Of a DNA stretch of 64,000 nt, positions 35,209 to 58,380 are shown one piece after another. The notes beneath the pieces were generated by a model that searched no databases, had not been told where the DNA came from, and saw only the letters and a list, made by a program, of their open reading frames with translations. Within the stretch, counting starts at the first letter, position 1; every line of letters begins with the position of its first letter. Position numbers and translations under genes: made by a program. The stretch comes from a virus (lineage: Duplodnaviria; Heunggongvirae; Uroviricota; Caudoviricetes), in the IMG/VR virus record IMGVR_UViG_3300029842_000004; one strand, given 5' to 3'.

Positions 35209-35270
35209 GAATTGACATATTCTCATAGCTAAAGCAAGCGGGATTCTTGGATACAAACGTATGAAACCTT
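35209..35270 (-). pseudogene. remnant of a paralogous gene 3' end (YPRIPLALAMRICQFPIS*), one copy of a 48-bp imperfect repeat
   Basis: 35209-35257 matches 44297-44345 (about 43 of 48 nt), which encodes the C-terminus HPRIPFALAMGVCQTGNCII of the 44279..45004 gene. Confidence 0.45.
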
Positions 35271-35346
35271 AGTATTTTGTTGCAAGAAAAGATGGTAATT
35301 ATAACAATCCCCAGCCATACAATAGGTGTACGGTTGGGGATTGTTG

Positions 35347-36000
35347 TCATATCGTAAAATTAAGTGTTTTTTCTAATATTAGATATTCAGTATGAATTTT
35401 ACTTCCGCCATCATCTATCAAGTCCAAATTAATATAAGCCGTATATGATACATGATGATCACCAGGAGTGAGACGCTTCATTTCTGATAAGAACATAGAA
35501 TTTAAACCTTGGCCAGACCATGATTCTGGATATGGCAAAGGTGTAAAGTCGGCATCTGTACATTTTATAGCCCAAGTAAGATTAGGATCTGCCCTAACTA
35601 TTCTATCATGAGGTCCATCAATTACAAGATCTGGCATCTCATATTGGTAACTATCATAATTAAGGACAATAGGATCACCAAAGTTTATACAGTATATAGC
35701 AGCAGGTGGAGTAAGGCTTGTTATTAAAAAGGTTCTATAAATCCTATTGGTTGTTCTTAGCGTAAACTCATCAGGTGCTATCACACTTACTCTAAATCCA
35801 TAATAAGGAGAGGTTTCTAAAGCAATAGCAAGAACCACCGAATCCTGTTCAAGCAATTCCTTTATCGTATCAACTTGACTATCGATCTCTTGCCTATCTT
35901 CTATTGGAACACCTCCTCGAATATACACAGTATCCAACCTTTTTTTTAGAAGATTGGTATATAAGCTCACCACCATCAGGGATGGTTCCGATAAGTTCAT
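35347..36000 (-). CDS. hypothetical protein (217 aa)
   Basis: ORF. First gene of the minus-strand block at the convergent junction. Poly-G9 lies 13 nt upstream of its ATG. Confidence 0.6.
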   Translation of the reverse strand: MNLSEPSLMVVSLYTNLLKKRLDTVYIRGGVPIEDRQEIDSQVDTIKELLEQDSVVLAIALETSPYYGFRVSVIAPDEFTLRTTNRIYRTFLITSLTPPAAIYCINFGDPIVLNYDSYQYEMPDLVIDGPHDRIVRADPNLTWAIKCTDADFTPLPYPESWSGQGLNSMFLSEMKRLTPGDHHVSYTAYINLDLIDDGGSKIHTEYLILEKTLNFTI

Positions 36001-36013
36001 TGTTTACATAACA

Positions 36014-36022
36014 CCCCCCCCC
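36014..36022 (-). repeat. poly-G (G9 on the coding strand) in the 5' leader of 35347..36000
   Basis: C9 on plus strand. Minus-strand context gtataGGGGGGGGGtgttatgtaaacaATG. Confidence 0.9.
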
Positions 36023-36089
36023 TATACAGTTACTAACTATTTTATACTCATATAGTTTAGCATTATTTTCAAATCTTCTTCTCATAATT

Positions 36090-36800
36090 TCATAAAATTA
36101 ATTCAGTAAAAGGACGGACATAATGATAACTACCCCTTGAACCTGTATCCAAATGATCTCCTTGGATGTTTATATCATAATACCACGAATAGGAAAATTT
36201 TGTATTTCGAGTGGATGTCCACATTCTATTACTCATTATCGTACCTCCTACCATTAAAAGGCATTCGTTTATTTCATTCGCATACAATGATATCAAAAAA
36301 AACTCTCCGGCGCCACCTACATATCCATTTTGACCATTTTTAAATAAATAGCTATTAGCTTTATTAAAAGCGTAATCTGTATTACTGGTATCATATTCAA
36401 GATACGCATTCTGATTTTCACGCCCCCAATAATCCTTTTTAATAGTTCCCATATGAGAACTATCTTGTGCAAATATATTGTCTATTTGTCCATCCTTACC
36501 CCAACGAAATGTGCCAATATATTCGGTGGCTATAACAAAACACACTTTATCTACAAGAGCTATTCCATTGCATAGATCATTGGAATATCCTTTATTAGAC
36601 CAATTTTCTTTTGTATATAATCCTCCATCTACATGTTGGATGTATATGCCTTTATTGATTATAAGCGAGGGATTTACCCCCCCCCCATCCCTATTCGAAA
36701 TCTTCGTCTCATGATTTTTTGTTTGCAAGATAGCAATAATTGACAACATAAAAGAAACCGGTTCCCTATCATCTCTGACTGAGAACCGGTAAGAAAACAA
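36090..36800 (-). CDS. hypothetical protein with N-terminal hydrophobic anchor (236 aa), containing an in-frame poly-G10
   Basis: N-terminal FMLSIIAILQ. The G10 tract encodes DGGGV about 40 codons into the ORF. Confidence 0.55.
   Translation of the reverse strand: MFSYRFSVRDDREPVSFMLSIIAILQTKNHETKISNRDGGGVNPSLIINKGIYIQHVDGGLYTKENWSNKGYSNDLCNGIALVDKVCFVIATEYIGTFRWGKDGQIDNIFAQDSSHMGTIKKDYWGRENQNAYLEYDTSNTDYAFNKANSYLFKNGQNGYVGGAGEFFLISLYANEINECLLMVGGTIMSNRMWTSTRNTKFSYSWYYDINIQGDHLDTGSRGSYHYVRPFTELIL
36677..36686 (-). repeat. poly-G (G10 on the coding strand) inside the CDS
   Basis: C10 on plus strand, read directly. Confidence 0.9.
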
Positions 36801-36926
36801 TTTCAGAAAAAATTAAACCTACATAACCTTAAAGTAAGAACAAAAAAACGTATAGTCTACTCTTTGACAATGCTAAGATAACATATCTGGCTCACATCAA
36901 AGTAATGTAAGCTCGATATTCTTCGT

Positions 36927-39900
36927 CTATTTGTAGCTTGTATCCTCATCACCTTCCGAATCAGGAGTGGCGCCGATGAAGAACATCATTGACTTGTTGT
37001 TCGTCTGCTGCCACCAATTATAGGCGCGCGCTACGTCTTCCGGCGTCTTGATATTATACCATTGTTTGATAAACGTCTGTTTGGCGAGTTGCCTAAATAA
37101 CTTAGACTCTCCCTTGTATGTACCGGATGTTACTTTATCAAGTGAATAATTCCTAAGATCGGTAAGATCCTTCAGTTTTCGCCCCATAACAAACGGATCG
37201 TTAATGATATCTACCACGTTAAGCTCCATAATAAACGGCATCTGTGAAGCTATTTCGTTTATGGTTCTGAATCCGACATAGGATCCAAATTGAGTAAGCC
37301 AACTTTCTTCGTTTTCATCATCATCACGCCATCCGGCAAGAAGCATAGATACGGCCTGCATGATAAGGAACGTGCCGGCATAGACACTGAGACGTTTGAG
37401 ATTGGTTTTTTCTACCTCATTCATATTGTCTTTATTTTCATTCCAGACATCTATGATGTTTTTCATACCAGACTCGGAAGCCAGGCTAAATGCTTTGGCT
37501 ATCATATTCTTTAACGTAATTGACAACCCTTCCTCTTCTTGCATTGTCTGGAAATTGAAGCCACGTCTTTTCCACAGACGTTGAGCTGCCAGCACCAGCC
37601 AGCCTCGGTGGGCGGTCATGAACCTGGCTATCCAGTTGCGCGATGCGGCAGTTCGATTTTCTTCATTCAAAAATCCGTTACATATCTGCGACAAACTACG
37701 AACTTGATTTCTGGTTATAGCCATCTGGGTTTCAACTTCCTCAACAGTAACACCCGATCCCGGCTTTACAACCACCTTTCCATCCACGACGTCTACCATA
37801 CTCCATAAAGTACGATCTTTTAATGCGTTCCATTCTCTTTTTATGGTACTCTGTTCTTTATTTCGTTCTTTTTCCATCTTGAAATCTTGGAACGTGTAGA
37901 ACCGGCCTTTGTAATAACGAACATTGTCCATAGTAGCAATCATAACCTGCGGATCAAGAGGGTAGTTCAGGATTTCCATAAAAGCATACATAGGCGAATG
38001 CATTAAGGTCCTGGCCGCTCTATTGTATCCGGCACCATACATACGATTTCGGATATTGAATATCCCCATTCTCTCACCTATGACATATAATTTACTTTTT
38101 CTATCTATGTCTCCGGTTTCTGCTATACAAGATGGCGCAAGACGTGAAAACTCAGCCGATGCGTATTTAAGGGAATCTTTGCTTATATACTGTCCTACGG
38201 CAGATTCCATGATGAGGTTGATGTGGCCGGTAAGGGCGCCGGTAGCTGCCACAAACGGAGACAGTGCCAAGTTCATGACCGACATAAACCTTTCAACAGC
38301 CATCATAATTCTTGTAAGGTCTACCGTATATCCTCCGATGTTCACCGTAAGTTTTTTGGTGTTCATCCTAATGCCATAATAATGATCGTTGAAGAAGTCC
38401 CTAAACATCTGATATGCTTGGGTTGCTTCAGCCTTCTTACCGCCCTCAAATTGTTTGTTCAGCAACATCTGCTCCAGTCCTTGGGCAAGCTCTATAGACT
38501 TCTGCTTTTCGTTGTATAACGATGACTGCATCATAAGCATCGAATAAGAGTAGCCAAAATCGTGAGATACATCATCTTGGTTCTCCAATTCATATATGTA
38601 GTATTTAGGTATAGACCTAAGCCTGTCTTCAGGATCATATACTTCCCCCTGTCTGGTTTTACCGTATAGAGAATCGTCTACTCTGTCCAGGCACAGATCT
38701 GATACAAAATTACGAACCGTATTTTTGAAGTTAATACCCAATCCTTCTACACGTTCTATGTCTTGTTTTGATATCTGTGGAATAGCATATAGGTTCGGGC
38801 TCTGCTCTTTGTATAGATCAAGTGATTGTCTTTTTATTTCCTTGAGTTTTTGAATCATATTCCACTGCTCTACGTTTTTAGTAGCAACTTCATTACCGTC
38901 AGCATCATACTTGATACCAAAGTCATTGAAATACGATTCATCACGATACAGGCTTTTCTTAGGCATGCGATGACCATACCCATGATCTTTTACATAATCG
39001 GGATTACGGCCGCTATTTTCGGCTTCAGATTCAGCCACCCATGCCCTTGCAGGATCGAAAGACAGGTACGATATGTCCATGCCATAATCTTGGGTGGATG
39101 TACCGTTTTGTACGTCCTTAACCATCTGCGCCACATCTATCTCACCTCGACCTATTTTGTCGATCATGGCCGCATATCCGGTAGGCGCCATGCGTTTATA
39201 GTACGAAAAGACCTGGCTCCTGGCAAATTCATTAACAATAGCATTGGCCTCTTCTATGCCCTCTTCTCTTGTATTATTTAAAAACAAGCTGGCCATCTTA
39301 GCATTAACAGCATTCCTGAAATCTCTACCGTCTAATTCTTTGCTTATACCAAGCTTTTCTGACAGGTAGTTGGTTTCAGATACGGTAAACAGATATCGGT
39401 TATCAGCAGCCTTAAACAGCTTATCCCTTAAAGCCTGAATCCTTTTTGCTTTCTTCGCCGTAGTATGACGTTGTACGAACTTCCATTCCACTTCCTTGGA
39501 GTCAGCAAGAGCATTTAAATAAGACTGATTTACTTCGTTTTCGGCCTTACTGCTTTTAGTAAGGTACTTATCAATATCTTCAAGACCCACCATCTTAGCA
39601 TAATCTATTAAGATAGCGTAATCAGCTTCAATAGCTTCAGATGCGGCCCTAAAAGCATCTCTTTCAGATGAGGTAAATGTCGCTTCGTTAATTTCTCCGA
39701 TATCAGCCACATCTCGGTTGTTTCCGATTATTTCCTTGATAATGGCCTTATTTTTTTCTATATCTTTCACAATCGAATCCACGTCAGTCGCATCTCTATC
39801 ACTTGTCGTAGAACTAATGATATCATGCGCCATTTTAAGATACGAAGCCTTGTTATTTGATTCGGTACGCGCCGACTGTTCCGATTCTACTTCATTCCAA

Positions 39901-42900
39901 AACCGATCATTGAACGACAGGTGACCTCCCAACATAAGTGTCTTCAGCGCAGCTTCTCCTCCCGACTCGCTCTGAATCGTTCTTAATTTTTGCAAAAACG
40001 ATTCTGATACGGCATTAGTGGCATTATTTGATTCTTTTCTCCAAACTTCATTTATGGCTTGTATTTCTTTGGCCATCTTAAGTTGGTCGCCGGTTTTTTC
40101 CACTCTCCTGGTTCCTACATATATGTATTCCGAAGCTGCCTCCTTACGTTGTTTACGAAGCAGTCCTTCTTCTTCGTAGTTACTACTCTTATAGTAGGCA
40201 ACCTCATCAAAATTACCACCGCTATCAATAAAAGGCTGCCTCAATATCCGTTTTTGCCGGGATAAGGCATTAAGGTATTCTTTGGTTGTTTGAGAAACCG
40301 GATGTCCTAATTCTTCTTCAGCCTTTTTGTATATGGATTCCATTCTTGTGGCATAACTTTCACTAAATTCCAATTCTGAATTTTCAGCATCCCACTTTTC
40401 CATCTGCTCCGTATAGATCTTTTCCTGCTCGATGGTAAAAATATCGGTATTAACCCTATCGGACGATGGTTTAAATTTAGCGTTTTCAGTAACCGTATTT
40501 CCGTCCTTGTCAACTACTTCTCTTTTAAATACGTAATTACGATTATTGTCAACCACATCACCAATTTCTTCTTCTGATATCTCTATGTTCATGGCAGTCG
40601 CAAACGCTCGCATCTGCGCCAGCTTCTTATTACGATCGTATTTAGCCATATCAAGAGCACTACGAAGGTAATTAGAAGTTTTGCCGTCTACTTTCTGAAG
40701 CAGTTTTTCAAATTCAGATTTGTTAAAACCATGCTTTTTAGCATATGCCAGGAAGTCGGATATGGCGGGCTGGGCATTCACCATCGCATTGTAATTGTCT
40801 TTGGCAATCATAGCTCCAAGAGCGTTATTGAACGGACTGGAAGAATGCTCTAATATACCAAACCACCTACTTATCCAAGAAACATCGTGTTGAACCTTGT
40901 CGAAAAATTCTTTTACTCTCTTTACCTTATCTGCCGGCACATGAAGTTCGTTCATTAACTTATCAAGCAACGTACTTTCATCAAGGTCTTGTACTGATTT
41001 AATATCAGACTGAATACCATTGATGTCGGCAATGACGGTATTGATCCTATTTGTATAATCCTGCTTTTCACGTTCATCAAATTCGGTACTTCTGTTACGG
41101 ATATATCCTCGAAGATCGTTCATGATCGGAAGAACCTGATTGTTGATAATATCTACGTTCTTTCGATCATTGGTATTGAAGTGAAGCTTACCGTCTTTGG
41201 TATCACCATGAAGGATGGTGTTCACCACATTGCTTAAGTATCTGACCTGAGCTTCGGCTGTGGAGATCATGCTGTTCATGGCAGCCGCCATCTCATTCTT
41301 GTCTATCTCGGTCTCTACTTTATTTATCTTATCTTCTATGGTCTTAAGCTGAGCAAGGGTCATAGACGTAGTTACAGCCCTATCAGAGCTTATCTGACGT
41401 AAGTCTCTTAATGTTTTTCTTAGCGATCTGATCTTAGACTCAAGAAACTTGTTCTTGTTCATAGAAGAAAGGGAGTATAATGTAAAGTCATTATCCTTTA
41501 ACAGAGAGGTGTCAAATCCTTTATCTATGTCAGTAATGGCAAGATCACGAATGTTTTTAATAACGTTATTCAAATCTTGTCTTTGGGTTGATAAAGCTGA
41601 TTTAAGCCAGCTTACTATTCCAGAGAAAAGCCGCCGGACGCGCCCCAGGAAGGAGGTGGGCTCTACCGGCGCCTGTGCTGTGCCGGTCTGCATCTCCCTG
41701 GCGAGGATCTTTCCAAGAATTTCTCTCCTAACAGCATTATCAAGCTCAGCTCCTTCATATACCTTACCGTATGTATTATAATACTGACCTGCATACTGGT
41801 TCCACTCTTCCGTACCTTCCACATCTTGCAGAACAGCCTCAACAGCATTCTGATCTCTGTACGCCTCTACAAGGAAGTGGGCTGTTTCTTCTACTAAATC
41901 AGATAAAGTAGCATCTTCACCAACTGCTATTACGTTATTAGCAATATCCGCCAATGCCTTAGCAGAAGGTTCGTGCCCGTATTTGGTTTGGTACTTCTCT
42001 ATATAGTCGGTCATACCTATGACACTAACGCCAAGCGTTTTCAGTATCTCGACAATAGAATTTCGTTGGTCACGTTCCTGCCTGCTATAATCTGATACGA
42101 TCTTAGCTTTAGTATCAGCATAAAGATCGTTATCTTCTAATATGAATGAAACTACAAGCGCATCAAAATGATCGTACTTGGCGTCCAATTCATTGTATCT
42201 TCCTGACTTAAGATCGTTCTTTATCTGTTCCCTACTAACCCTTTCCGTTCCTCCGGTGGCGAGTCTCATAGTTACCTTACTGTTATCCAACGAGCTTATG
42301 GTTATCATACCTTGGTCGTTCATGGAAACATCGGAACCAAAATGATTACGGAGCTCGGTGTATGATAAGGCTGAATTGAAAAGTCTAATTTGTCCTGTAT
42401 AACCTTCTCCTGTAAGATAATAGCTTCTTGTTTCAGAATCGAATATCTTAGATCCTGACAAAAGACCTTTCTTTATAAGGTAGTTAATTATCCCGCCTTT
42501 TGTTGATAAAGAAGTAGAAGCAGAAGCGGTCATGACCGGTATAAAAGACTTGGGATTATTAAGAACATACTTTCCAGCTTTGTAAGTAATGTCTGCCACG
42601 CCATCCACGGTAGATTCTTGAACGGTTCCTGATAAGAATCCTATTCTAATATCATTCCCGCCAGAGCGAAGAGCTTCTCCGTAATCTTCAAATAATTGAC
42701 TACGATCGTTCATGAAAAACAAACGAGGCTCTCCAGTCTGATACGTTACACCCACAGGATTAGAATCTGTTTCTGGTAGCTCTTCTGGGCTAAATATCTT
42801 AAGACCGTCTTTTATAACCATATAATTAACACCCTTATCCTGTACCACAGATACGGGAGTGAAGTCCGAAGATATAGCATCTTGTAAATACTGCCCGGCG

Positions 42901-43349
42901 TCTATTCCTGGTTCTTCCGGTACGGAAATACTTGATGGGATCATAGCATCCACCAACATAATATTATCACCCAGATCTTGGCTATAGAATCCGAAGCCTG
43001 ATTCTTGAATCCCATAAGTTGCATCTGATTTTGATACAAGAACAGGATTACTCATCTTAGAAGCCTTATCCAGCACCCTTTCTCTATAAGCTTCCGGAAT
43101 AAGATCAATGTTGGATTTAACCTTATTATAAGCCGGTTTGTTGATAGGCACTCTCTTTCTCCAGTCGCCAAAATCCTTTAAGAACTTATTAGAAAATACG
43201 GTTTTAAAAACAGTAGTAGCCCGTTCCCTGTTCTCCATAAGAGGAATAGATGCTATCTTATCAAACAACATAGACCTGTCCCCTGATCTGGTAGAGACAG
43301 AAACAACTTTCTTTTTATTATCTCTTTTAATAATACACGTTGACGTCAT
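36927..43349 (-). CDS. giant protein (2140 aa), probable virion-associated or ejected cargo protein
   Basis: Uninterrupted 6.4-kb ORF in AT-rich DNA. Coiled-coil rich. No catalytic motif recognised. Confidence 0.8.
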   Translation of the reverse strand: MTSTCIIKRDNKKKVVSVSTRSGDRSMLFDKIASIPLMENRERATTVFKTVFSNKFLKDFGDWRKRVPINKPAYNKVKSNIDLIPEAYRERVLDKASKMSNPVLVSKSDATYGIQESGFGFYSQDLGDNIMLVDAMIPSSISVPEEPGIDAGQYLQDAISSDFTPVSVVQDKGVNYMVIKDGLKIFSPEELPETDSNPVGVTYQTGEPRLFFMNDRSQLFEDYGEALRSGGNDIRIGFLSGTVQESTVDGVADITYKAGKYVLNNPKSFIPVMTASASTSLSTKGGIINYLIKKGLLSGSKIFDSETRSYYLTGEGYTGQIRLFNSALSYTELRNHFGSDVSMNDQGMITISSLDNSKVTMRLATGGTERVSREQIKNDLKSGRYNELDAKYDHFDALVVSFILEDNDLYADTKAKIVSDYSRQERDQRNSIVEILKTLGVSVIGMTDYIEKYQTKYGHEPSAKALADIANNVIAVGEDATLSDLVEETAHFLVEAYRDQNAVEAVLQDVEGTEEWNQYAGQYYNTYGKVYEGAELDNAVRREILGKILAREMQTGTAQAPVEPTSFLGRVRRLFSGIVSWLKSALSTQRQDLNNVIKNIRDLAITDIDKGFDTSLLKDNDFTLYSLSSMNKNKFLESKIRSLRKTLRDLRQISSDRAVTTSMTLAQLKTIEDKINKVETEIDKNEMAAAMNSMISTAEAQVRYLSNVVNTILHGDTKDGKLHFNTNDRKNVDIINNQVLPIMNDLRGYIRNRSTEFDEREKQDYTNRINTVIADINGIQSDIKSVQDLDESTLLDKLMNELHVPADKVKRVKEFFDKVQHDVSWISRWFGILEHSSSPFNNALGAMIAKDNYNAMVNAQPAISDFLAYAKKHGFNKSEFEKLLQKVDGKTSNYLRSALDMAKYDRNKKLAQMRAFATAMNIEISEEEIGDVVDNNRNYVFKREVVDKDGNTVTENAKFKPSSDRVNTDIFTIEQEKIYTEQMEKWDAENSELEFSESYATRMESIYKKAEEELGHPVSQTTKEYLNALSRQKRILRQPFIDSGGNFDEVAYYKSSNYEEEGLLRKQRKEAASEYIYVGTRRVEKTGDQLKMAKEIQAINEVWRKESNNATNAVSESFLQKLRTIQSESGGEAALKTLMLGGHLSFNDRFWNEVESEQSARTESNNKASYLKMAHDIISSTTSDRDATDVDSIVKDIEKNKAIIKEIIGNNRDVADIGEINEATFTSSERDAFRAASEAIEADYAILIDYAKMVGLEDIDKYLTKSSKAENEVNQSYLNALADSKEVEWKFVQRHTTAKKAKRIQALRDKLFKAADNRYLFTVSETNYLSEKLGISKELDGRDFRNAVNAKMASLFLNNTREEGIEEANAIVNEFARSQVFSYYKRMAPTGYAAMIDKIGRGEIDVAQMVKDVQNGTSTQDYGMDISYLSFDPARAWVAESEAENSGRNPDYVKDHGYGHRMPKKSLYRDESYFNDFGIKYDADGNEVATKNVEQWNMIQKLKEIKRQSLDLYKEQSPNLYAIPQISKQDIERVEGLGINFKNTVRNFVSDLCLDRVDDSLYGKTRQGEVYDPEDRLRSIPKYYIYELENQDDVSHDFGYSYSMLMMQSSLYNEKQKSIELAQGLEQMLLNKQFEGGKKAEATQAYQMFRDFFNDHYYGIRMNTKKLTVNIGGYTVDLTRIMMAVERFMSVMNLALSPFVAATGALTGHINLIMESAVGQYISKDSLKYASAEFSRLAPSCIAETGDIDRKSKLYVIGERMGIFNIRNRMYGAGYNRAARTLMHSPMYAFMEILNYPLDPQVMIATMDNVRYYKGRFYTFQDFKMEKERNKEQSTIKREWNALKDRTLWSMVDVVDGKVVVKPGSGVTVEEVETQMAITRNQVRSLSQICNGFLNEENRTAASRNWIARFMTAHRGWLVLAAQRLWKRRGFNFQTMQEEEGLSITLKNMIAKAFSLASESGMKNIIDVWNENKDNMNEVEKTNLKRLSVYAGTFLIMQAVSMLLAGWRDDDENEESWLTQFGSYVGFRTINEIASQMPFIMELNVVDIINDPFVMGRKLKDLTDLRNYSLDKVTSGTYKGESKLFRQLAKQTFIKQWYNIKTPEDVARAYNWWQQTNNKSMMFFIGATPDSEGDEDTSYK

Positions 43350-51387: not shown

Positions 51388-51970
51388 TTATGAAACTTCT
51401 ATTTCATAATGCGAGGCCTCTGTTTCAACTATCAATCTTCCCTCTCCTTCGAACTCAACACTGTCATTTCCCGGACCAGTAACAAAAGGGAAATCAGATA
51501 CGGATGTTACATAATCTCCAGAACCACCAGAAAAAGACTGACTTTTACTTTGTTTGTAATTGATAGTCAATTGTGTTTTACCTGGCTGAAGAGTTCCAGA
51601 TAAATTTTTAGTATAAGTGGTGGTAGTCGTAATATTCCCATTTTTATAGCAATACATTATAAAAGTAGTAACCGGACTCTTTTTAATATTACTATCTGGA
51701 CCTTCATGATAAGATTCATTTCCTCCAAATATGCTACTAATATGACAATAAGGACCAACTCTTTTATTTGAAGTTTTAGCCTTATTCTCTACTCCCTTCA
51801 AAGATATAGTAACCTTGCTCTTGTATTCAATATCCCTCCAGTTGCAAACTCCTTCACTTACGTTTCCAACAAATCTGTCATCAACATAAACCTCTATATC
51901 CCCCCCCCTGCTGATTGGTCTTCAACTGGTAAGAAACAAGACTTGAGGTATCTTCGTATCTCCTTCTCAT
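51388..51970 (-). pseudogene. gene interrupted by a poly-G9 tract: ATG 51970 ORF stops shortly after the tract; G8 (or G11) would give about 193 aa continuous with the 137-aa ORF 51388..51801
   Basis: Manual translation. ATG AGA AGG...CAG CAG GGG GGG GGA TAT AGA GGT TTA TGT TGA with G9. With G8 the frame runs into MKGVENKAKT... The track ORF begins at TTG. Confidence 0.5.
51900..51908 (-). repeat. poly-G (G9 on the coding strand) at the gene-interrupting position
   Basis: C9 on plus strand, read directly. Confidence 0.9.
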
Positions 51971-51972: not shown

Positions 51973-54900
51973 TCAACACTCCTTATTTAACTCATTTATA
52001 GAATCTGAATTATCAGATTTTTTTACAAGATTCTTATTCCTGTCTATCTCTTCCTGACTCATGTTTCTTATCATGTTCTGTATTTCTCTTCCAGATTGTA
52101 ATAAGGAACGTATAAATTCACTGGAACTTATTTTAACTCCAAGATCGGGTTTAGCCCTGAACGCCTCACCGGTGTTGATGTTGTACAAATCATACAAACC
52201 TGAGTTCATGTAGAATTTGTATATCCAGTTTCCACCAGCTTTTTTGTATCCTAATTTGGTTAACTCGACTACACTCATACCAAATTTAATGCCATTACGA
52301 CCCATTATCTTCTCCGGTATAGGTTCTACCTTAGCCGGAACAGATGTATATGCTTCATCACCGCCGTACAGGAAATAAGGGGTTGTCACCCTTGATATGT
52401 GAGTAAGCGGTTCTTCGGATATACGAGGTTCGTCTTTTTCTATTTCTCCTTTTGTAGATCCAGGTAATTCGACATTTCCTTTAACTTCGACATTTGTTCT
52501 GGATTGTCCTTTGCCTTCTCCATCTCCCTTTTTATCGCCATCTTCCTCAGTGCGTACCGCACCGCCTTCTGCACTTCCTTCTTTTCCATCATTTAAAATA
52601 TTATCTGATTCTGACTCTATAGACTCCACAACAGCATCATACTCTGGTATGCCGCTAAGGAAATCTGCTACGTTATTCAAAAACTCTATTTTTTCCTCGT
52701 TTGTCATATCAAGGCTTTCCACGGGCCCCCATATGGCGGGCAAGTTGTTTGATTTTATTACAGTAGAAACATCTTCTATAGTTTGGTTGTCCACCGTAGG
52801 CAAAACTTTAGAAACCAAACTATTGATATCAGATTCCATTTTTTCTACTTCCTCTTTTGTGCCATATTCTTTTAGGGTATCCATGCCATTAACTCTAAGA
52901 GAATAATTCAAAGCCTTGCTTGGAACAAAATTAATATATTTCAAAAAGTTTTTCAACTCTGATATAATTTGTTCGTCAGATCTTGGCCCAACATAATCCT
53001 CGACTACCTGATCTGTTTGAGAACGAAGCCAAGAAACGTATTCTTCTAAAGTCTTACCACCTTTACCGGAAGGAGTGGATATTTTATCACCTACTGTTCC
53101 TTTAGGTTCTAATCCCATTTCCTCCTTAAGGCTTTTAGGATTACCTCTCTCACGAAGAAACCTCAAATCACCTCCTACAATCTTCCTTGCTATAAAATCA
53201 AAAATATTAGCATAAGGCGGCAATCCCTCTTTTTCTATATGAGATTCTATTTCGTTTAACATAAGAGAGAAGTTTTTCCTGGAGGTACGCTTCTTGCCAG
53301 GTAAAGACTGCGCATCTTGTGCCGCAGGAGCCGGCTGAGCTAATGGCGCCGGCTGAGTCTCCCGGGCAGCCCCTTCCTCTGGCATTTCCTCTTCATAAAC
53401 TTCCACGTCTTCCTTAGAAGTAACGGTCTTACCCTCATCAGAGAAAGGAAGATCATCCTCTATAAGTGATTTAGGTCTTGAAGATGATTTACCAAACTGG
53501 ATCCTGATCTTAGGAGCAACAAACATCTCACCTTCGAAATCTATTCCAGATTCTACTTCAGACGTCACAATGTCTTTCACGCTCCTACTTCCATCTTCTA
53601 CCCACTTAACAACATCAGGAACTGTAGATAATTCTTCTATAGCCTCACGAGCTTTTCTAAGACCTGAAATAGGATTCAAATACGATACTTGATACGAAGC
53701 CGGATCAAGACCTAACTTGGTTAGATACGCATTAAGATCTTGTATGTCATCTTGACCCATCTGTAGCAATTCAGAATCACCAGATTCAAGCAGCATATCT
53801 ATAAAAGACATCCATTTCTGCCCTTCCTCTGATTCTACAGAACGTAGGCTAACTGGGAAAAGATAATTAAGACCGTTTTTACCTTTGATGACGACTACCG
53901 GAACTCTTACATTTTTGTAATTATTCCCCTTGTCATTTAATATAGAATAAGCAAATGGGAAGCCTGTGTATTTAGATCCGTTCTTAAGCACGACTTTGCC
54001 ATTTAATACATATCCAACATCAGATACTTTTTCAGCACCTTTTTCGGTAATAGGGAGATTTTCTATCTGGCCATATCCTTGACCGTTCACCTTCATGTTA
54101 AACACCGGTCTTCCGGGAAGGGTCTGGGCAACAACATGCGTGCCGACGCCGATGGTAGCCGACCGGCCGGCGTCCTTCTTCCACTTGTTAAAAGCCGTTC
54201 TTCTTATTTTACTTATACCATCTATGCCTCCTGTATCAGCTTTTACAACAGAAACGAATCTGTTCCCACTCATGACCTTGATAACCATATTGGACACCAG
54301 TTTATTCTCAGCAGATTCTATTCTTTTTTTATCGCCGGACTGAACAGCATCATTGTATTCGGCAAAAAGAGACTGATTATAAGTATCATTTACATCTATT
54401 TCGAGATTAACCTTATCTCCTTTTTTCAAAGAAGATAATGCTTCCTGATCTATTTTATCTACCTCATTCTCTCCGAATCCGACACCCGTTCTGTACGGAA
54501 CCAATTCATCTGAATCAAGACGCTTATAAACCAAAGAATAGGAATTACCCACGTCCTGAATAGACACGTCTGTGTAACGGTTAAGAACACGAGCCGATTC
54601 TTTGTCTATAGACCATCTCGCATGATAAGGCAGTTCAATTATAGTAGCCGTTTCTCCACCTATGTTAAGAGAATACCTTTTAGTACCATTAGCGTTCGTT
54701 TCAGAGCTTATTTGAATAGGAACCAATGATTTTATAGAAGATATAAATTTATCGGCTCTAAGACCCGCAATTTCATACCTTTCGTTGCCATCGTTGGATA
54801 TTCTTCTAACCATCAACGTCTCTGGATTTTGGGCACTATCTATGTTAGCTCCAGGCGTATTATCGGATTCATCTAACTCATTTACAAGAGAATCTATATT

Positions 54901-57900
54901 GGTATCATCCTCCCCAAAATTACTTAACGTAGATTCGGAAATACGACCTTTATCAATAATCCTGTTTTGTTCGATATAAGGAAGGAGATCTGTGATGTTT
55001 CCAACCTGGCCAAGATCTTCTATGGTAAATACAGAATCGGCAAGCTTATCTTCGTCAACCTTCTCCCCTTTATCCCGTCTGTTCATTATATCAACATACG
55101 AAGAAATAGCATCATCAAGTTCCTTCCTTTGATCTGGTTCCAAATTGGATTTAGCCATATCAATAATAGCTTTATTATCCTCATACACAGATCGATGTTC
55201 AGTGAGTCTCCTAACTTTATCTGATAAATCTTTTATCATCTTAGCCGGACTATCACCAAGATTTGATATATAATCATCAATATCCTGTTTATACTTTTCA
55301 TATATCTCCTTCTCCCTTGGAGATAAAAGATCTTGATTACCTGTATATATCTTATCTACGATACGTTCTTTAACCTCTATAGGTGCAGACAAAAGATCTT
55401 CCATTGCCGACTCATAATCAAAATCAGACAATATATCTTCTTTCGGCTTCTGAGTTATACCATCGTTTAGATGACCAAATACTTTCATGGTAAATGCTTC
55501 ATCTGAATTTATTTCTCCATTATTCAGAAGCTCATCTATTTTTTCATCCAAACTGATATTATTACCCTCTGTCTGGTAAAAACGATCACTTTCTATAGAT
55601 TTAGTATTAGAAGATACCATATCATTTAAGAACTTAGAAAATAAAGAAAAATCATGTCTCATGAATTTCTTATCCTGTATGGAGTTCATAAATGACCGTA
55701 AAACCTTATATTGGGTAATGGCTTTCTGGTATTTCACCACCATATTTCTTAAATCCTCTGCTTCTTTCTTCCCTTTATTATTCTCAATATAAGTACTTAA
55801 AGAAGCTACAGAGTCATAAGCTTTCAATATATCTTCAGCAGTTATTGTTTCGGATTTAAACAACTCAAGAGCTAATACTCCAGGATCAAAAGAATAAAAT
55901 ACTTCTTTATAACTACTAAGAAGATCTTCTGACAACCTTCTATATTCCTTATTAAGATTATCGTATTTAATAGTTTTTTGTTTTATAGCCTCTGCTTCGG
56001 TATCATTGCCATCCTCTACTCTTCTCGGAGTTGTAGCCAACCTCTCTATTTCAGCATTCAGATCATTGATCTCATTACGCAATTCCCTTAACTGATTAAC
56101 TGTATCAAAAGCTTGACTTGATAATGAATAAAACGTATTTATATCATCAAACAAATTATTGTCATTTACATAATCAGCAATATCATTTGATGCTTCCATT
56201 GCTATATCTTCTGCATCCAACCCCTTAAACACAGCATTAGCAACATTAGATCGATAAAGATCAGATGAAGTCTCAGCAGTAATAGCCTCAGCAAAAGAAG
56301 AAGCTTTTTTATAATTGGCTAACTTCTTATCAAAATCTTTTATAATATCTTCCTTGTATTTTTTAACAGTTTCTTCATCTACTTTCATTTCAGAAGCCAA
56401 CTCATTTTCGTCAAGGCTTTTAACCATTGACCTGAAATTGTTAGCCGTATCCTCTAATATTCCCATTCTGTCAGATAATTCAAATTTAGAATAATAATCT
56501 GATTCAGGATCATTCATTTGAGCATTAAATTCGGCTAAATTTCGCATAGAGTCTTTTACGGATTGAGAAGTAAAAGCATTATTACTATTAAATTTCTCAA
56601 CATCAGTATTAATAGTACGCTCTTTATTTCTCCTTTCATATAAACCAAAAGCACCATTTCTGGCTCCAAATAAACCACCAATCAGGGCTCCTATGCCAAT
56701 CTCTTTCAATCCTTCTTTGGTTGTAAATTGTTCAGCTATAGCCTTAGAAAAAGAATCAACTATAGAAGACGTAGCATCAAGATACGTCTTATCATATCTT
56801 GATCTAATAAAATCTTCTCCCATGCGCTGAGCAACACCTTGCATGCCTTCCTCCCATACACCTTCAGATATGGGTCTTTTAGATACATTCCAAATAGTAG
56901 CTAAGGATTTCTGGAATAAATTTGCTTTTACCGTCTGTAATCTTCCAGCATCACCCGCTACCTTCTTAGTCCCTAATCCAAACAAATAGCGATCTACAAA
57001 ACTCTTTGATCCCCTATATGTGTTTGATACACCCTTTAATCCAGGTATGTATTTAGAAGCAAAACCAGTGTCTACTCCAAGATATTTTCCCAGAAGAAGA
57101 TAATTGGATAATCCAACTATACCCATATTAGCTAAAAATATGCTGTTTGCCGTATCGGAAATAGAACTCTTAAATTCAGCCATCTCAGACTGATTAGGAT
57201 TCCGACCATACATATTTTTAAAATATTCCTTGTATTTACTTTCAGAGTCTTTCATAAAGGACTGAGCCTCCACGGCAGACTCCCAGCCGGCGCCCACAAA
57301 CGTATTTACTCCTACCTTGGCCATATTGCCTATGGCCCTGCCGTACATCGCTCCTGCCCTATACGCTCCAAAAGCAGATTTTACAGCACTTGCCGCAATC
57401 TTAGACGCCGCCATCTTTCCGGCCACCCTCATCCCTACTTTAGCACCAACAGCTCCAAGACTTGACACACCCATCCCACCTGTAAGGTAGGCAGACAAAA
57501 TAGCTCCTGTCGTAAACGATAGACCATTTCCAATAACATCATTAAAAATAAAATTTGCAGTTCCAAGACTCTGCAAAAATCCCATATCACGTTCTTCTCT
57601 TGTATAATAATGAGGAAGAGAGTGGTTTATTCTTTCATCTATATCATTTATGGTTCGTGTAAAATCATTGTCAAATGCAGAAGATAACGTACCAGTCTTT
57701 ATAAGATTATACGCAGCCGGGATAATACCTACTACTCCTGATACACCATATAATGCTGTTTTTGTGACAAGCTTCCCTATGCCATTAACAGCCTTATTCC
57801 AAGTAGTTTGACTTCTTCCGTAATAATCTTCATTATCCCTTCCTGGCATATAACTTTTAAACCTTGCAAGACCGATGTTCCCATCGGATAAAAAGTCATA

Positions 57901-58380
57901 TGCTTCATCTAACTTAATAGTTCTTCCTTTACCAAATACACCAAAATCAGCAGCAGATGACTGTTGATTACCAGCTATAACCTCACCATAAGACGTTTGT
58001 TTACCAGAATAAGTATTCCTTGATTTATCTTGAATAGATTTTATCATGGAATTTAACTTATTATAAGACTCCTCTTTCTTCTTTCTTGGATCATCTCCAC
58101 CATTCAGAGCCGATTTTAGTCCAGAAAAAGATGTGTCTACATCAAAAGAAGTATCTATTCCGCTAATATCATATCCTTTTTCTGAATCATCATCAGGATT
58201 TATGGCTGATACCGGGGGAGTATATGAACCTACTTTCATCCTCTCCATCTCTCTTTTTGCTCCCTCAATAAGAGAAGATTCTTCTTCATATCGCGTAGGA
58301 ACTCCGGCATTATACCCTCTCAATCCAGTAGATGGTAAGAAACCTGATTTCTCTACCAATGTCTGTTCCTTATTTTCCAT
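51973..58380 (-). CDS. giant protein (2135 aa), probable virion-associated or ejected cargo protein
   Basis: Uninterrupted 6.4-kb ORF. Central coiled-coil region. Pro/Ala-rich linker. Stop overlaps the downstream start. Confidence 0.8.
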   Translation of the reverse strand: MENKEQTLVEKSGFLPSTGLRGYNAGVPTRYEEESSLIEGAKREMERMKVGSYTPPVSAINPDDDSEKGYDISGIDTSFDVDTSFSGLKSALNGGDDPRKKKEESYNKLNSMIKSIQDKSRNTYSGKQTSYGEVIAGNQQSSAADFGVFGKGRTIKLDEAYDFLSDGNIGLARFKSYMPGRDNEDYYGRSQTTWNKAVNGIGKLVTKTALYGVSGVVGIIPAAYNLIKTGTLSSAFDNDFTRTINDIDERINHSLPHYYTREERDMGFLQSLGTANFIFNDVIGNGLSFTTGAILSAYLTGGMGVSSLGAVGAKVGMRVAGKMAASKIAASAVKSAFGAYRAGAMYGRAIGNMAKVGVNTFVGAGWESAVEAQSFMKDSESKYKEYFKNMYGRNPNQSEMAEFKSSISDTANSIFLANMGIVGLSNYLLLGKYLGVDTGFASKYIPGLKGVSNTYRGSKSFVDRYLFGLGTKKVAGDAGRLQTVKANLFQKSLATIWNVSKRPISEGVWEEGMQGVAQRMGEDFIRSRYDKTYLDATSSIVDSFSKAIAEQFTTKEGLKEIGIGALIGGLFGARNGAFGLYERRNKERTINTDVEKFNSNNAFTSQSVKDSMRNLAEFNAQMNDPESDYYSKFELSDRMGILEDTANNFRSMVKSLDENELASEMKVDEETVKKYKEDIIKDFDKKLANYKKASSFAEAITAETSSDLYRSNVANAVFKGLDAEDIAMEASNDIADYVNDNNLFDDINTFYSLSSQAFDTVNQLRELRNEINDLNAEIERLATTPRRVEDGNDTEAEAIKQKTIKYDNLNKEYRRLSEDLLSSYKEVFYSFDPGVLALELFKSETITAEDILKAYDSVASLSTYIENNKGKKEAEDLRNMVVKYQKAITQYKVLRSFMNSIQDKKFMRHDFSLFSKFLNDMVSSNTKSIESDRFYQTEGNNISLDEKIDELLNNGEINSDEAFTMKVFGHLNDGITQKPKEDILSDFDYESAMEDLLSAPIEVKERIVDKIYTGNQDLLSPREKEIYEKYKQDIDDYISNLGDSPAKMIKDLSDKVRRLTEHRSVYEDNKAIIDMAKSNLEPDQRKELDDAISSYVDIMNRRDKGEKVDEDKLADSVFTIEDLGQVGNITDLLPYIEQNRIIDKGRISESTLSNFGEDDTNIDSLVNELDESDNTPGANIDSAQNPETLMVRRISNDGNERYEIAGLRADKFISSIKSLVPIQISSETNANGTKRYSLNIGGETATIIELPYHARWSIDKESARVLNRYTDVSIQDVGNSYSLVYKRLDSDELVPYRTGVGFGENEVDKIDQEALSSLKKGDKVNLEIDVNDTYNQSLFAEYNDAVQSGDKKRIESAENKLVSNMVIKVMSGNRFVSVVKADTGGIDGISKIRRTAFNKWKKDAGRSATIGVGTHVVAQTLPGRPVFNMKVNGQGYGQIENLPITEKGAEKVSDVGYVLNGKVVLKNGSKYTGFPFAYSILNDKGNNYKNVRVPVVVIKGKNGLNYLFPVSLRSVESEEGQKWMSFIDMLLESGDSELLQMGQDDIQDLNAYLTKLGLDPASYQVSYLNPISGLRKAREAIEELSTVPDVVKWVEDGSRSVKDIVTSEVESGIDFEGEMFVAPKIRIQFGKSSSRPKSLIEDDLPFSDEGKTVTSKEDVEVYEEEMPEEGAARETQPAPLAQPAPAAQDAQSLPGKKRTSRKNFSLMLNEIESHIEKEGLPPYANIFDFIARKIVGGDLRFLRERGNPKSLKEEMGLEPKGTVGDKISTPSGKGGKTLEEYVSWLRSQTDQVVEDYVGPRSDEQIISELKNFLKYINFVPSKALNYSLRVNGMDTLKEYGTKEEVEKMESDINSLVSKVLPTVDNQTIEDVSTVIKSNNLPAIWGPVESLDMTNEEKIEFLNNVADFLSGIPEYDAVVESIESESDNILNDGKEGSAEGGAVRTEEDGDKKGDGEGKGQSRTNVEVKGNVELPGSTKGEIEKDEPRISEEPLTHISRVTTPYFLYGGDEAYTSVPAKVEPIPEKIMGRNGIKFGMSVVELTKLGYKKAGGNWIYKFYMNSGLYDLYNINTGEAFRAKPDLGVKISSSEFIRSLLQSGREIQNMIRNMSQEEIDRNKNLVKKSDNSDSINELNKEC

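What the first reader, a model, noticed from the sequence alone, without database searches (positions are those of the whole stretch)
36001..36030. G9 tract 13 nt upstream of the start codon of the first late-block gene
Minus-strand context is gtataGGGGGGGGGtgttatgtaaacaATG. A long homopolymer in the leader or promoter region is the classic arrangement for transcriptional or translational phase variation. I checked whether it could fuse the upstream 236-aa ORF to this gene and rejected that: a stop codon lies between them.
Basis: seen in the sequence. Interest (0 to 1): 0.65.

Follow-up and report, generated by a model that had tools for sequence, protein, structure and literature searches.

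The report
Frame-switching poly-G tracts in gut phage
The G9 run is not in a promoter or leader but sits inside the coding sequence (three glycine codons) of a small virion-operon gene of a human-gut crAss-like phage, and it is one of three such runs whose length varies between natural phage genomes and switches these genes in and out of frame, a behaviour so far documented only for Campylobacter phages.

Summary
The G9 run exists (minus strand, 36014-36022), 13 nt before an ATG at 36000. That ATG is not a start codon. The real gene starts at 36085 (MRRRFENN...), 4 nt after the upstream gene's stop, and reads through the run as Gly-Gly-Gly (codons 22-24). Over 100 homologues are continuous 245-aa proteins. 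In this window a +1 frameshift in an A8 run (35940-35947) splits the gene, which creates the apparent 217-aa ORF.

The window is an epsilon crAss-like phage, about 95% identical to crAssE-Sib. It has three poly-G runs of 9 or more (0.1 expected). Each lies 9-21 codons after an MRRR[F/Y] start of a small gene in the virion structural operons.

Across about 150 related contigs the tracts range from G4 to G12. Roughly half the pure tracts are out of frame, and adjacent genes switch independently. Contigs with identical flanks differ in tract length. A T8 and a G5 run nearby never vary. GGG is the rarest Gly codon.

Best reading: slipped-strand contingency loci that switch accessory virion proteins on and off, as in Campylobacter Fletchervirus phages. 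The proteins' function, the within-population switching and the adaptive value are inferred. Phase variation is supported; the leader/promoter mechanism and gene model are not.

The parts
36014..36022 (-). G9 tract of the finding. It forms codons 22-24 (Gly-Gly-Gly) of gene 2 and is in frame with the MRRRF start in this window.
   Evidence: Searches give the sequence and frame. Searches show the same leader plus tract in relatives. Searches show length polymorphism (G8/G9/G10 for this allele, G7-G12 for the family).
35347..36085 (-). Gene 2, the true gene containing the tract. It belongs to a 245-aa family with leader MRRR[F/Y]xNNAKLYEYKIVSNCI-GGG-[CV]YVNNELIGT... In this window it is split into a 63-aa ORF (36085-35894) and a 217-aa ORF (36000-35347).
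   Evidence: L026, L061 and L083 have a continuous ORF; most of the 120 listed homologues are 245 aa at 100% coverage. AF2 model with pLDDT 80, all-beta.
35940..35947 (-). A8 run carrying a window-specific +1 frameshift. Relatives read AAAAAACGG (K K R). It causes a premature TAG at 35896-35894 and the spurious 217-aa ORF.
   Evidence: The allele is absent from IMG/VR.
36090..36712 (-). Gene 1, family MRRRFQIGMGVNPSLIINKG..., 205 aa in relatives. It lies immediately upstream of gene 2.
   Evidence: comparison with crAssE-Sib WOZ57324; 137 related stretches in IMG/VR.
36677..36686 (-). G10 tract at codons 9-12 of gene 1. It is out of frame with the MRRRF start; G5, G8 or G11 would be in frame.
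   Evidence: Sib has G5. G4 x1, G5 x54, G6 x10, G8 x4, G9 x3, G10 x1 (window). L032 has a pure in-frame G10 in another allele.
51388..51970 (-). Gene 3, family MRRRYED..QQG.IEVYVDDRFVGN..., 192 aa in crAssE-Sib. It starts 2 nt after the stop of the 2135-aa ORF and shares the N-terminal module of gene 2.
51900..51908 (-). G9 tract at codons 21-24 of gene 3. It is out of frame; G8 or G11 would be in frame. This expansion is unique to the window.
   Evidence: Sib has G4+A and an intact gene; 64 relatives have GGGGA or GGGGG, all in frame; no tract of G7 or longer in IMG/VR.
36927..43349 (-). 2140-aa virion structural protein gene, the operon context upstream of genes 1 and 2.
   Evidence: phrog_37651 'virion structural protein', E = 2e-75; annotated as structural protein in crAssE-Sib.
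51973..58380 (-). 2135-aa giant ORF directly upstream of gene 3, separated from it by 2 nt.
   Evidence: phrog_32390; annotated as structural protein in crAssE-Sib.

Best explanation
The G9 run is an intragenic hypermutable homopolymer, a simple-sequence contingency tract. It lies in the 5' coding region of a small accessory gene of the virion structural operon of an epsilon crAss-like phage.

Proposed mechanism:
1. Translation starts at the conserved ATG at 36085 (MRRRFENN...).
2. The run encodes a conserved Gly-Gly(-Gly) turn, 21 codons into the gene.
3. During phage DNA replication, slipped-strand mispairing adds or removes G residues.
4. Any change that is not a multiple of three moves the 220-aa body out of frame, and the frame then ends after about 24-44 residues (OFF).
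5. A further slip restores the frame (ON).

The same device sits in two other MRRR-start genes of this window: G10 at 36677-36686 and G9 at 51900-51908. A phage population can therefore carry up to eight combinations of three accessory virion proteins. The gene 2 product is predicted to be built of Ig-like beta-sandwich domains with a conserved N-terminal module and variable C-termini. That fits a surface-exposed adhesin or host-recognition accessory.

In this particular genome the finding's tract is in frame, but the gene is inactivated downstream by a +1 frameshift in an A8 run. Genes 1 and 3 are out of frame at their tracts.

Shown directly: the gene model, the frame logic, the natural length polymorphism and its specificity to these tracts. 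Inferred: slippage as the cause, reversibility within a population, virion location, a role in host recognition, and adaptive value.
For: Gene model:
- The start at 36085 is shared with crAssE-Sib and with all cassette types, always 4 nt after the upstream stop.
- L026, L061 and L083 have continuous ORFs through the tract.
- Of 212 homologues, most of the 120 listed are 245 aa and include the leader and CIGG[G/E/R/D].

The glycines are a protein feature:
- Distant relatives keep the motif ..SNC.GG.[IV]Y.D.

Non-random homopolymer:
- G9 pattern: 0.10 matches expected, 4 observed.
- GGG makes up 12.7% of Gly codons, and 0 of 42 Gly-Gly pairs in long ORFs are GGG-GGG.
- A sister cassette encodes the same turn as GGC GGA, with no run.

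Length polymorphism:
- Tract 1: G4-G10.
- Cassette B: G8 x4, G9 x13, in-frame 10 nt x19 (including 4 interrupted forms), 11 nt x3.
- Ten independent samples encode an identical downstream protein but carry G8 (6) or G9 (4).
- 27 ENA gut contigs range G7-G12 and about half are OFF. These include contigs at about 150x coverage.

Specificity:
- A T8 run is invariant in 75/75 loci and a G5 run in 79/79. All coding A/T runs of 5-6 are invariant.
- G runs of 7 or more occur essentially only at the two tract sites, always as G on the coding strand.

Rate:
- Contig pairs with 0 differences in 1200 flanking nt differ in tract length in 3 of 5 cases. With 1-2 differences it is 14 of 21. This equals the level seen in highly diverged pairs.

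Independence of adjacent switches:
- ON/ON 39, ON/OFF 23, OFF/ON 12, OFF/OFF 6.

Assembly quality:
- ORFs of 2140, 2135, 1007, 851 and 759 aa are intact. Other non-triplet indels against Sib are almost all in intergenic A/T runs.

Context and fold:
- The neighbouring giant ORFs match PHROG virion structural proteins.

Precedent:
- Fletchervirus polyG tracts in RBP genes (Sorensen 2021, Cell Rep 35:109214, cited in PMC12823448, PMC10877375 and PMC11959909).
Against: - No read-level data were available, so heterogeneity and reversibility within a single phage population are not shown.
- Differences between assembled consensus sequences could partly reflect Illumina or PCR slippage at G9-G12. I had no invariant G/C run of comparable length to use as a control.
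- The function of all three proteins is unknown. There are no Pfam, PHROG or NCBIfam hits. The fold matches are generic. The gene 1 model failed with pLDDT 31.
- In the window, the tract 3 expansion (G9) and the A8 frameshift are unique among relatives. A DUF3988 gene in the same genome carries both a nonsense codon and a G8 frameshift. This genome may therefore simply be accumulating homopolymer lesions in dispensable genes.
- Many lineages carry interrupted, permanently in-frame versions such as CIGGE, CIGGR and CIGGD. Mutability is therefore not universally retained.
- crAssE-Sib itself has no long tract at any of the three sites.
Confidence: 0.75

Rival explanations
1. Neutral mutational hotspot. 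The run is only an unlucky codon choice for a Gly-Gly-Gly turn in dispensable genes. Slippage keeps breaking and occasionally repairing them. OFF alleles are loss-of-function variants drifting in the population and are not a selected bet-hedging switch.
For: - The window carries several apparently degenerative homopolymer lesions: the A8 frameshift in gene 2, a unique G9 in gene 3, and a DUF3988 gene with both a TAA and a G8 frameshift.
- Many lineages have interrupted, stable tracts.
- crAssE-Sib lacks long tracts.
- Genomes with all genes OFF exist, so the genes are dispensable.
Against: - GGG is the rarest Gly codon, and GGG-GGG pairs are otherwise absent in about 9,800 codons. Despite this, pure G8-G12 tracts persist across alleles that differ by about 20% in protein sequence.
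- The same device recurs at three MRRR-start genes, always near the 5' end and always as G on the coding strand.
- ON and OFF are near 50:50 and statistically independent between neighbouring genes. That pattern is expected for rapid reversible switching and is not expected for one-way decay.
Confidence: 0.17
2. The G9 lies in the promoter or 5' leader of a 217-aa gene that starts at 36000, and it tunes that gene's transcription or translation initiation.
For: The run is 13 nt upstream of an ATG that opens a 217-aa ORF in this window.
Against: - That ORF is an artefact of a window-specific frameshift. In relatives the frame starting at that ATG closes after about 32 codons, and the body is read from the start at 36085.
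- More than 100 homologues include the leader and the glycines in one ORF.
- The upstream gene ends 4 nt before the true start.
- No promoter-like site exceeds chance.
Confidence: 0.02
3. Technical artefact. The tract-length differences between contigs are sequencing or assembly errors at long G homopolymers, and the true sequence is a fixed in-frame length.
For: - Long G runs are error-prone on several platforms and in PCR-based libraries.
- All evidence comes from assembled consensus sequences.
- No invariant G/C run of 9 or more was available as a control.
Against: - Short tracts that are easy to sequence also vary. G5 versus G6 was seen in 10 of 73 contigs at tract 1.
- Differences of 2-5 nt occur: G5 versus G10, G9 versus G12, G4 versus G9.
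- OFF lengths are found in contigs assembled at about 150x coverage.
- A T8 run is invariant in 75/75 loci.
- Interrupted alleles are mostly in frame: 4 of the 7 interrupted cassette B forms, while the 3 eleven-nt forms are out of frame.
- Independent pipelines (IMG/VR, ENA, Logan) give the same picture.
Confidence: 0.05
4. Programmed recoding. RNA polymerase slippage or ribosomal frameshifting on the G run (and on the A8 run) yields a fixed mixture of products from every genome. On this view the DNA length matters little.
For: - Homopolymers of 8 or more can promote transcriptional slippage (established knowledge).
- In the window, the A8 run would need only a 1-nt deletion in the mRNA to restore the full 244-aa protein.
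- Gene 1's body can be reached from alternative upstream starts in other frames: ATG 36749 in the window, and the 'MQKKNEKK...' form of P0152, which has 3,360 member sequences.
Against: - The alternative frames after the tract close within 2-20 codons, so no second conserved product exists.
- No conserved stimulatory structure and no Rfam element were found.
- The A-run and G-run lengths at gene 1 show no compensatory pattern.
- This rival is not exclusive of DNA-level switching.
Confidence: 0.08

Closest known systems
Hypermutable polyG tracts in receptor-binding-protein genes of Campylobacter Fletchervirus phages (Sorensen et al. 2021, Cell Rep 35:109214; cited in PMC12823448, PMC10877375, PMC11959909)
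   Same: - Poly-G runs lie inside phage genes of the virion and host-recognition module.
- Length changes shift the frame and give ON and OFF phage subpopulations.
- Several tracts occur per genome.
   Different: - The phage lineage is unrelated (epsilon crAss-like, about 150 kb, human gut), and so are the proteins. There was no tblastn match in 50,697 phage records.
- The host is unknown. It is presumably Bacteroidales, whose own phase variation relies mainly on DNA inversion and not on polyG (my knowledge, and PMC11959909).
- Receptor-binding function, virion location and within-population switching are demonstrated for Fletchervirus. Here they are only inferred.
Bacterial simple-sequence contingency loci (polyG/polyC tracts in Campylobacter, Neisseria and Haemophilus surface-structure genes; e.g. 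PMC4965091, PMC3315296)
   Same: - A homopolymer of 7 or more sits in the 5' part of an ORF.
- The mechanism is slipped-strand mispairing.
- Each locus switches ON and OFF stochastically and independently.
- Interrupted tracts act as locked alleles.
   Different: The tracts are carried by a virus, so the unit of variation is the phage burst or population and not a bacterial lineage. The targets are virion accessory proteins and not glycosyltransferases or restriction-modification enzymes.
Promoter or leader homopolymer phase variation (e.g. poly-C in Bordetella fim promoters, poly-G/poly-C in the Neisseria porA and opc promoters; my knowledge)
   Same: A long G/C homopolymer close to an ATG.
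   Different: Here the tract is translated (codons 22-24). It does not lie between promoter elements or in a 5' UTR.
Other phage host-range diversifiers: DGRs (Bordetella phage BPP-1; also reported in Epsilonunovirus, PMC11054128) and invertible tail-fibre segments (Mu Gin, P1 Cin)
   Same: They share the presumed purpose, which is to generate virion heterogeneity within one phage lineage. A DGR is reported in the same phage genus, so the two systems may coexist.
   Different: The mechanism is entirely different. There is no reverse transcriptase, no TR/VR pair in the window and no invertase or inverted repeats. These tracts switch genes on and off and do not diversify sequence.

Membership tests
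Simple-sequence (homopolymer) contingency locus with translational phase variation | A homopolymer of about 7 nt or more lies inside the ORF, typically in its 5' part | tested here: met
   G9 forms codons 22-24 of the 245-aa gene. G10 forms codons 9-12 of gene 1. G9 forms codons 21-24 of gene 3.
Simple-sequence (homopolymer) contingency locus with translational phase variation | Tract length is polymorphic among otherwise near-identical genomes, while other repeats are stable | tested here: met
   Tracts range G4-G12 across about 150 contigs. Contigs with identical 1200-nt flanks carry G9, G10 or G12. T8, G5 and coding A/T runs are invariant.
Simple-sequence (homopolymer) contingency locus with translational phase variation | Length changes toggle the reading frame, and both ON and OFF alleles occur in nature | tested here: met
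   State table: 39 ON/ON, 23 ON/OFF, 12 OFF/ON, 6 OFF/OFF. Cassette B has 19 in-frame and 20 out-of-frame contigs. Gene calls of 221-227 aa start after the tract on OFF contigs.
Simple-sequence (homopolymer) contingency locus with translational phase variation | High-frequency, reversible switching within a clonal population | not testable with these tools
   This needs read-level or experimental data. Only consensus assemblies were available.
Simple-sequence (homopolymer) contingency locus with translational phase variation | ON and OFF states give different phenotypes | not testable with these tools
   The protein function is unknown and there is no isolate or host.
Fletchervirus-type polyG-regulated phage receptor-binding proteins | The tract-bearing genes encode receptor-binding or virion proteins | tested here: inconclusive
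Fletchervirus-type polyG-regulated phage receptor-binding proteins | Sequence homology to the Fletchervirus RBPs or their phage lineage | tested here: not met
   tblastn of P0002 against 50,697 phage records found no match. The window is an epsilon crAss-like phage.
   The tract is translated in a conserved ORF. The gap to the upstream gene is 4 nt. There is no excess of promoter-like sites.
Programmed ribosomal frameshift or transcriptional slippage site | The alternative frame downstream encodes a second conserved product, or a conserved stimulatory element is present | tested here: not met
   Shifted frames end within 2-20 codons. There is no Rfam element.
Diversity-generating retroelement target | A TR/VR repeat pair with adenine-specific differences, next to a reverse transcriptase | tested here: not met
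   A self-BLAST of the window finds only one 46-bp repeat, unrelated to these genes. The DGR reported for the genus (PMC11054128) is not in this window.

The most novel reading that the evidence does not exclude
Epsilon crAss-like phages, a widespread human-gut lineage, may carry a multi-locus poly-G 'phasome'. At least three independently switching tracts sit in accessory virion-protein genes, and the gene 2 slot holds exchangeable cassettes. Every burst would then contain a mixture of virion types. This could act as a counter-strategy to the phase-variable capsules of Bacteroidales hosts. It would be the first case of phage-encoded homopolymer phase variation outside Campylobacter phages and the first in the commensal gut virome. 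In the same genus it may operate alongside a DGR.
Probability: 0.45. Interest if true: 0.75.

Novelty: new member of a known kind. Interest (0 to 1): 0.6.

Why it matters
Phage-encoded homopolymer phase variation has one documented precedent, the Campylobacter Fletchervirus phages, which a 2025 review calls 'an exceptional case' (PMC11959909). If the tracts here behave the same way, the strategy is not a Campylobacter peculiarity. It would also be used by crAss-like phages, which are among the most abundant viruses of the human gut and whose long-term coexistence with phase-variable Bacteroidales hosts is an open problem.

There are two practical consequences.
- Gene callers split or truncate these genes. 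Annotations and pan-genome counts for this phage group are therefore distorted at exactly the loci most likely to determine host interaction.
- The hypothesis is directly testable with existing deep metagenomes, because the tract positions and in-frame lengths are now defined.

Tried and rejected
- **Fusion by frameshift at the G run.** G8 and G10 both run into stops (ATG TAA, or CAA TGA) before 36000, so the tract does not fuse anything to the 217-aa ORF. The fusion point is the A8 run.
- **Promoter or leader role.** Rejected.
- **RNA element.** An Rfam scan of 34500-37500 gave only chance-level hits.
- **DGR involvement.** Gene 1's C-terminus looked like a lectin-type variable region, and some tracts differ from relatives by A-to-G changes. 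However, the window has no TR/VR pair.
- **Compensation between the 5'-UTR A5/A6 run and tract 1.** The idea was that an upstream ATG is the real start. The cross-tabulation shows no such pattern.
- **Generic homopolymer error in the assembly.** Rejected because the giant ORFs are intact and the other indels are intergenic.
- **Function by sequence.** Pfam, PHROGs, NCBIfam and PDB sequence searches gave nothing for the three small proteins.
- **Function by structure.** The gene 2 model gave only generic Ig-like matches. The gene 1 model failed with pLDDT 31 and was not used. AFDB50 was unavailable.
- **Prior reports.** The Sorensen 2021 paper itself is not held in the library and is cited through three papers that reference it. 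Searches found no report linking crAss-like phages to homopolymer switching.
- **Recurrence of the window's alleles.** The window's A8 allele and its expanded tract 3 were not found in IMG/VR.

Full report
**1. Observation**

On the minus strand the window reads gtataGGGGGGGGGtgttatgtaaacaATG. The G9 occupies 36022-36014 and the ATG is at 36000. A G9 pattern matches four times in the window, which corresponds to three tracts. Dinucleotide-preserving shuffles give 0.10 matches on average, and none of 100 shuffles reached four. The run is therefore real and non-random.

**2. Identity of the window**

Region 34500-38500 is about 95% identical to phage 'csAssE-Sib' (OR575929, 151 kb, human gut). 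This phage is crAssE-Sib of Babkin et al. 2024 (PMC11054128), an epsilon crAss-like phage of the proposed genus Epsilonunovirus. That paper reports a DGR and a C-type-lectin RBP. It contains no mention of homopolymers, polyG, frameshifts or phase variation.

Minus-strand genes run from at least 63962 down to about 35200, where they converge with a plus-strand replication block. The finding's gene is the second-to-last of that minus-strand structural block, not the first.

**3. True gene model**

- In crAssE-Sib, the two genes after the giant 'structural protein' both begin with MRRRF.
- The window has the same start (ATG AGA AGA AGA TTT) at 36085, 4 nt after the TGA of the upstream gene. That frame reads the run as GGG GGG GGG and continues CYVNNELIGTIPDGGELIYQSSKKK... 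to a TAG at 35896-35894.
- Three IMG/VR contigs with the same allele (L026, L061, L083) carry one continuous ORF: MRRR[F/Y].NNAKLYEYKIVSNCIGGGCYVNNELIGT.PDGGELIYQSSKKRLDTVYIRGG... They read AAAAAACGG where the window reads AAAAAAAAGG.
- The window therefore has a +1 frameshift in an A8 run (35940-35947). This splits the gene into a 63-aa ORF and the 217-aa ORF. The ATG at 36000 is an out-of-frame internal triplet. In relatives, the frame that starts at that ATG closes after about 32 codons.
- A database search with the repaired protein returned 212 homologues. Most of the 120 listed are 245 aa at 100% coverage and include the leader and CIGG[G/E/R/D].
- The A8 allele occurs in no IMG/VR contig.

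**4. The tract is one of a set**

The window has only four G/C runs of 7 or more. Three are runs of G9 or longer on the coding strand, each shortly after an MRRR[F/Y] start.

| Tract | Coordinates | Gene | Position in gene | Relatives | State in window |
|---|---|---|---|---|---|
| G10 | 36686-36677 | gene 1 (MRRRFRIGM...) | codons 9-12 | crAssE-Sib has G5, in frame | out of frame |
| G9 (the finding) | 36022-36014 | gene 2 | codons 22-24 | see section 5 | in frame at the tract |
| G9 | 51908-51900 | gene 3 (MRRRYED...) | codons 21-24 | crAssE-Sib has G4+A and an intact 192-aa gene | out of frame (G8 or G11 needed) |

Gene 3 starts 2 nt after the stop of the 2135-aa ORF.

Genes 2 and 3 share an N-terminal module. 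Distant members of the family keep it as MRRR..Y.Y.[IV].SNC.GG.[IV]Y.D....G.[IV]...I.[IV].GGVP, followed by different C-termini. A 405-aa member has the module twice. The glycines are therefore a conserved protein feature. The homopolymer arises from codon choice: a sister cassette encodes the same turn as GGC GGA ACC. In 12 long ORFs of the window, GGG accounts for only 12.7% of 623 Gly codons, and none of 42 Gly-Gly pairs is GGG-GGG.

**5.

- **Tract 1.** Eighty IMG/VR loci were fetched around gene 1. Lengths are G4 x1, G5 x54, G6 x10, G8 x4, G9 x3 and G10 x1 (the window).
- **Gene 2 slot.** It holds at least four cassette types:
  - the window's type A;
  - the common type B, from the same 245-aa family;
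  - type C, which has no run;
  - the unrelated 149-aa type D, found in crAssE-Sib.
- **Type B.** G8 x4, G9 x13, in-frame 10-nt tracts x19 (15 pure G10 and four interrupted forms such as GGGGGTGGGG), and 11 nt x3.
- **The window's own allele.** G9 in L026, L061, L083, L245 and L254. G8 in L060. G10 in L271.
- **A sister allele.** Ten independent Logan/ENA samples encode an identical 221-aa downstream product but carry G8 (6 samples) or G9 (4 samples), where G10 would be in frame.
- **Metagenome scan.** An independent scan gave 27 scorable human-gut contigs with G7-G12. About half are out of frame, including contigs assembled at about 150x coverage.
- **Gene calls on OFF contigs.** Database entries of 221-227 aa that begin 'MYVNNE...' or 'MYRGGVIVE...' are gene calls that start at a GTG or TTG at or after an out-of-frame tract.

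**6. Controls**

- In the same loci, a T8 run inside gene 1 is 8 in 75/75 contigs, a G5 run is 5 in 79/79, and all coding A/T runs of 5-6 are invariant. Only two non-coding A/T runs upstream of gene 1 vary.
- G runs of 7 or more occur essentially only at the two tract sites, always as G on the coding strand.
- Contig pairs with zero differences in 1200 flanking nt differ in tract length in 3 of 5 cases. With 1-2 differences the figure is 14 of 21. The level in highly diverged pairs is about 0.7, so tract length is already randomised at the shortest distances observable. For example, L069, L257 and L258 have identical flanks and carry G10, G12 and G9.
- The states of the two adjacent genes are statistically independent: 39, 23, 12 and 6.
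- The window's assembly is not generally poor at homopolymers. ORFs of 2140, 2135, 1007, 851 and 759 aa are intact, and other non-triplet indels against crAssE-Sib lie almost entirely in intergenic A/T runs.

**7. What the genes encode**

- The three small proteins have no Pfam, PHROG, NCBIfam or PDB-sequence match.
- Their giant neighbours match PHROG 'virion structural protein' families.
- An AlphaFold2 model of the gene 2 family has pLDDT 80.4 and is all-beta.
- The gene 1 model failed with pLDDT 31.
- The family is narrow, with 31 representative clusters among 1.84 billion proteins. It has no relative in 50,697 deposited phage genomes.
- A role as a surface-exposed virion accessory or host-recognition protein is therefore an inference. 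It rests on the operon position, the tight coupling to structural genes, the Ig-like fold, and the modular architecture of a conserved N-terminus with variable C-termini and cassette exchange.

**8. Mechanism and rivals**

The best-supported reading is an intragenic contingency tract. Slipped-strand mispairing changes the number of G residues and toggles the frame between the MRRR start and the body of the protein. This happens independently at up to three genes. In this genome, gene 2 is ON at its tract but broken at the A8 run, and genes 1 and 3 are OFF at their tracts.

Rivals:
- **A neutral slippage hotspot in dispensable genes.** This is plausible in part. The window also has a DUF3988 gene with a unique TAA and a G8 frameshift. 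Many lineages carry interrupted, locked-ON tracts.
- **Sequencing artefact.** This is unlikely given the G5/G6 differences, the multi-nucleotide differences, the OFF contigs at high coverage and the T8 control.
- **Constitutive recoding by slippage.** This is not excluded as a modifier.
This is refuted by the gene model.

A caveat for gene 1. In the window, A6 plus G10 happens to place the body in frame with an upstream ATG at 36749. A common database form (P0152, 3,360 member sequences) reaches the same body from another upstream start. Relatives show no compensatory pattern between the A-run and the G-run.

**9. Comparison with what is known**

The closest system is the set of hypermutable polyG tracts in the receptor-binding-protein genes of Campylobacter Fletchervirus phages (Sorensen 2021, Cell Rep 35:109214). 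I could cite it only through PMC12823448, PMC10877375 and PMC11959909, because the paper itself is not held. The mechanism and logic are the same. The phage lineage, the proteins and presumably the host are unrelated, and the functional steps shown for Fletchervirus are only inferred here.

Formally, the tracts meet the three sequence-level criteria of a bacterial-type simple-sequence contingency locus. Within-population reversibility and phenotype cannot be tested with these tools. No paper in the library connects crAss-like phages with homopolymer switching.

**10. Verdict**

The run is real, but the annotation around it is wrong.
Phase variation is supported, but it works by an intragenic frame switch and not through a leader or promoter.
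- This is a new member of a known kind. It is of moderate-to-high interest because of the phage group involved, the number of loci, and the roughly 50:50 ON/OFF split in natural populations.

Noticed in passing
window 12032-12872 (+); TAA at 12098-12100; G8 at 12260-12267: A DUF3988-family gene (278 aa in crAssE-Sib, WOZ57377) is hit twice in this window. It has an in-frame TAA at codon 23, where all 69 relatives have GAA. It also has a G8 run that is +1 out of frame, where the closest relatives read TGT GGG GAG GTT. This looks like a decaying gene, or the G8 may be a fourth slippage-prone site.
   Followed up: yes
window 35347-36085 (-) and loci L004-L083 around positions 3591-4400: The slot after gene 1 holds at least four alternative cassettes. 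All start 4 nt after gene 1's stop with an MRRR[F/Y] codon block: types A, A' and B (one 245-aa family with poly-G), type C (MRRRYENDIKLYEYVINSNCIGGTIFVDG, no run) and type D (149 aa, crAssE-Sib type, unrelated body). Homology to crAssE-Sib breaks at 36063 and resumes at 35352. This suggests cassette exchange at the conserved leader.
   Followed up: partly
window 36713-36830 (-); ATG at 36749; A6 at 36715-36720: Upstream of gene 1's MRRRF start there is an open frame with an ATG (MLSIIAILQTK...). In the window, A6 plus G10 puts the gene 1 body in frame with it. The A-run before the ATG is polymorphic (A5/A6, and A8/A9 in a second leader allele). A database form, P0152 (MQKKNEKKISNRGGVNPS..., 3,360 member sequences), reaches the same body from another start. 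This may mean alternative N-termini and not simple OFF states. Relatives show no compensatory pattern.
   Followed up: partly
window 36757-36790 (-): A conserved 8-bp-stem hairpin, ACCGGTTC-(18 nt)-GAACCGGT, lies in the 214-nt gap between the 2140-aa ORF and gene 1 and is retained in relatives. It could be a terminator or attenuator, or a regulatory element for the gene 1/gene 2 pair.
   Followed up: no
window 35212-35257 and 44300-44345: A 46-bp direct repeat (89% identity) is the only internal repeat found in the window by self-BLAST. Both copies lie at the 3' ends of minus-strand gene groups. The first copy overlaps a 49-aa hydrophobic ORF (35201-35350).
   Followed up: no
window ~42521, inside ORF 36927-43349 (-): There is a 20-nt indel relative to crAssE-Sib. 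The window's 2140-aa ORF is intact. In the crAssE-Sib record the gene is annotated as two overlapping CDS (WOZ57322 and WOZ57323), so the deposited genome appears to be the frameshifted one.
   Followed up: partly
window 36677-36686, 35940-35947, 51900-51908, 12260-12267: All four window-specific homopolymer changes relative to relatives are expansions (+5, +1, +4, +1). Three of them are unique among 64-80 related contigs. This could point to a lineage-specific slippage bias from the replication or repair background, or to a property of how this genome was sequenced.
   Followed up: partly
window 5665-7962 and 55357-60892: These stretches have no BLASTN match to crAssE-Sib in an otherwise syntenic alignment. 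They include the C-terminal part of the 2135-aa ORF and most of the 1007-aa ORF. These are divergent or replaced segments of the structural genes.
   Followed up: no
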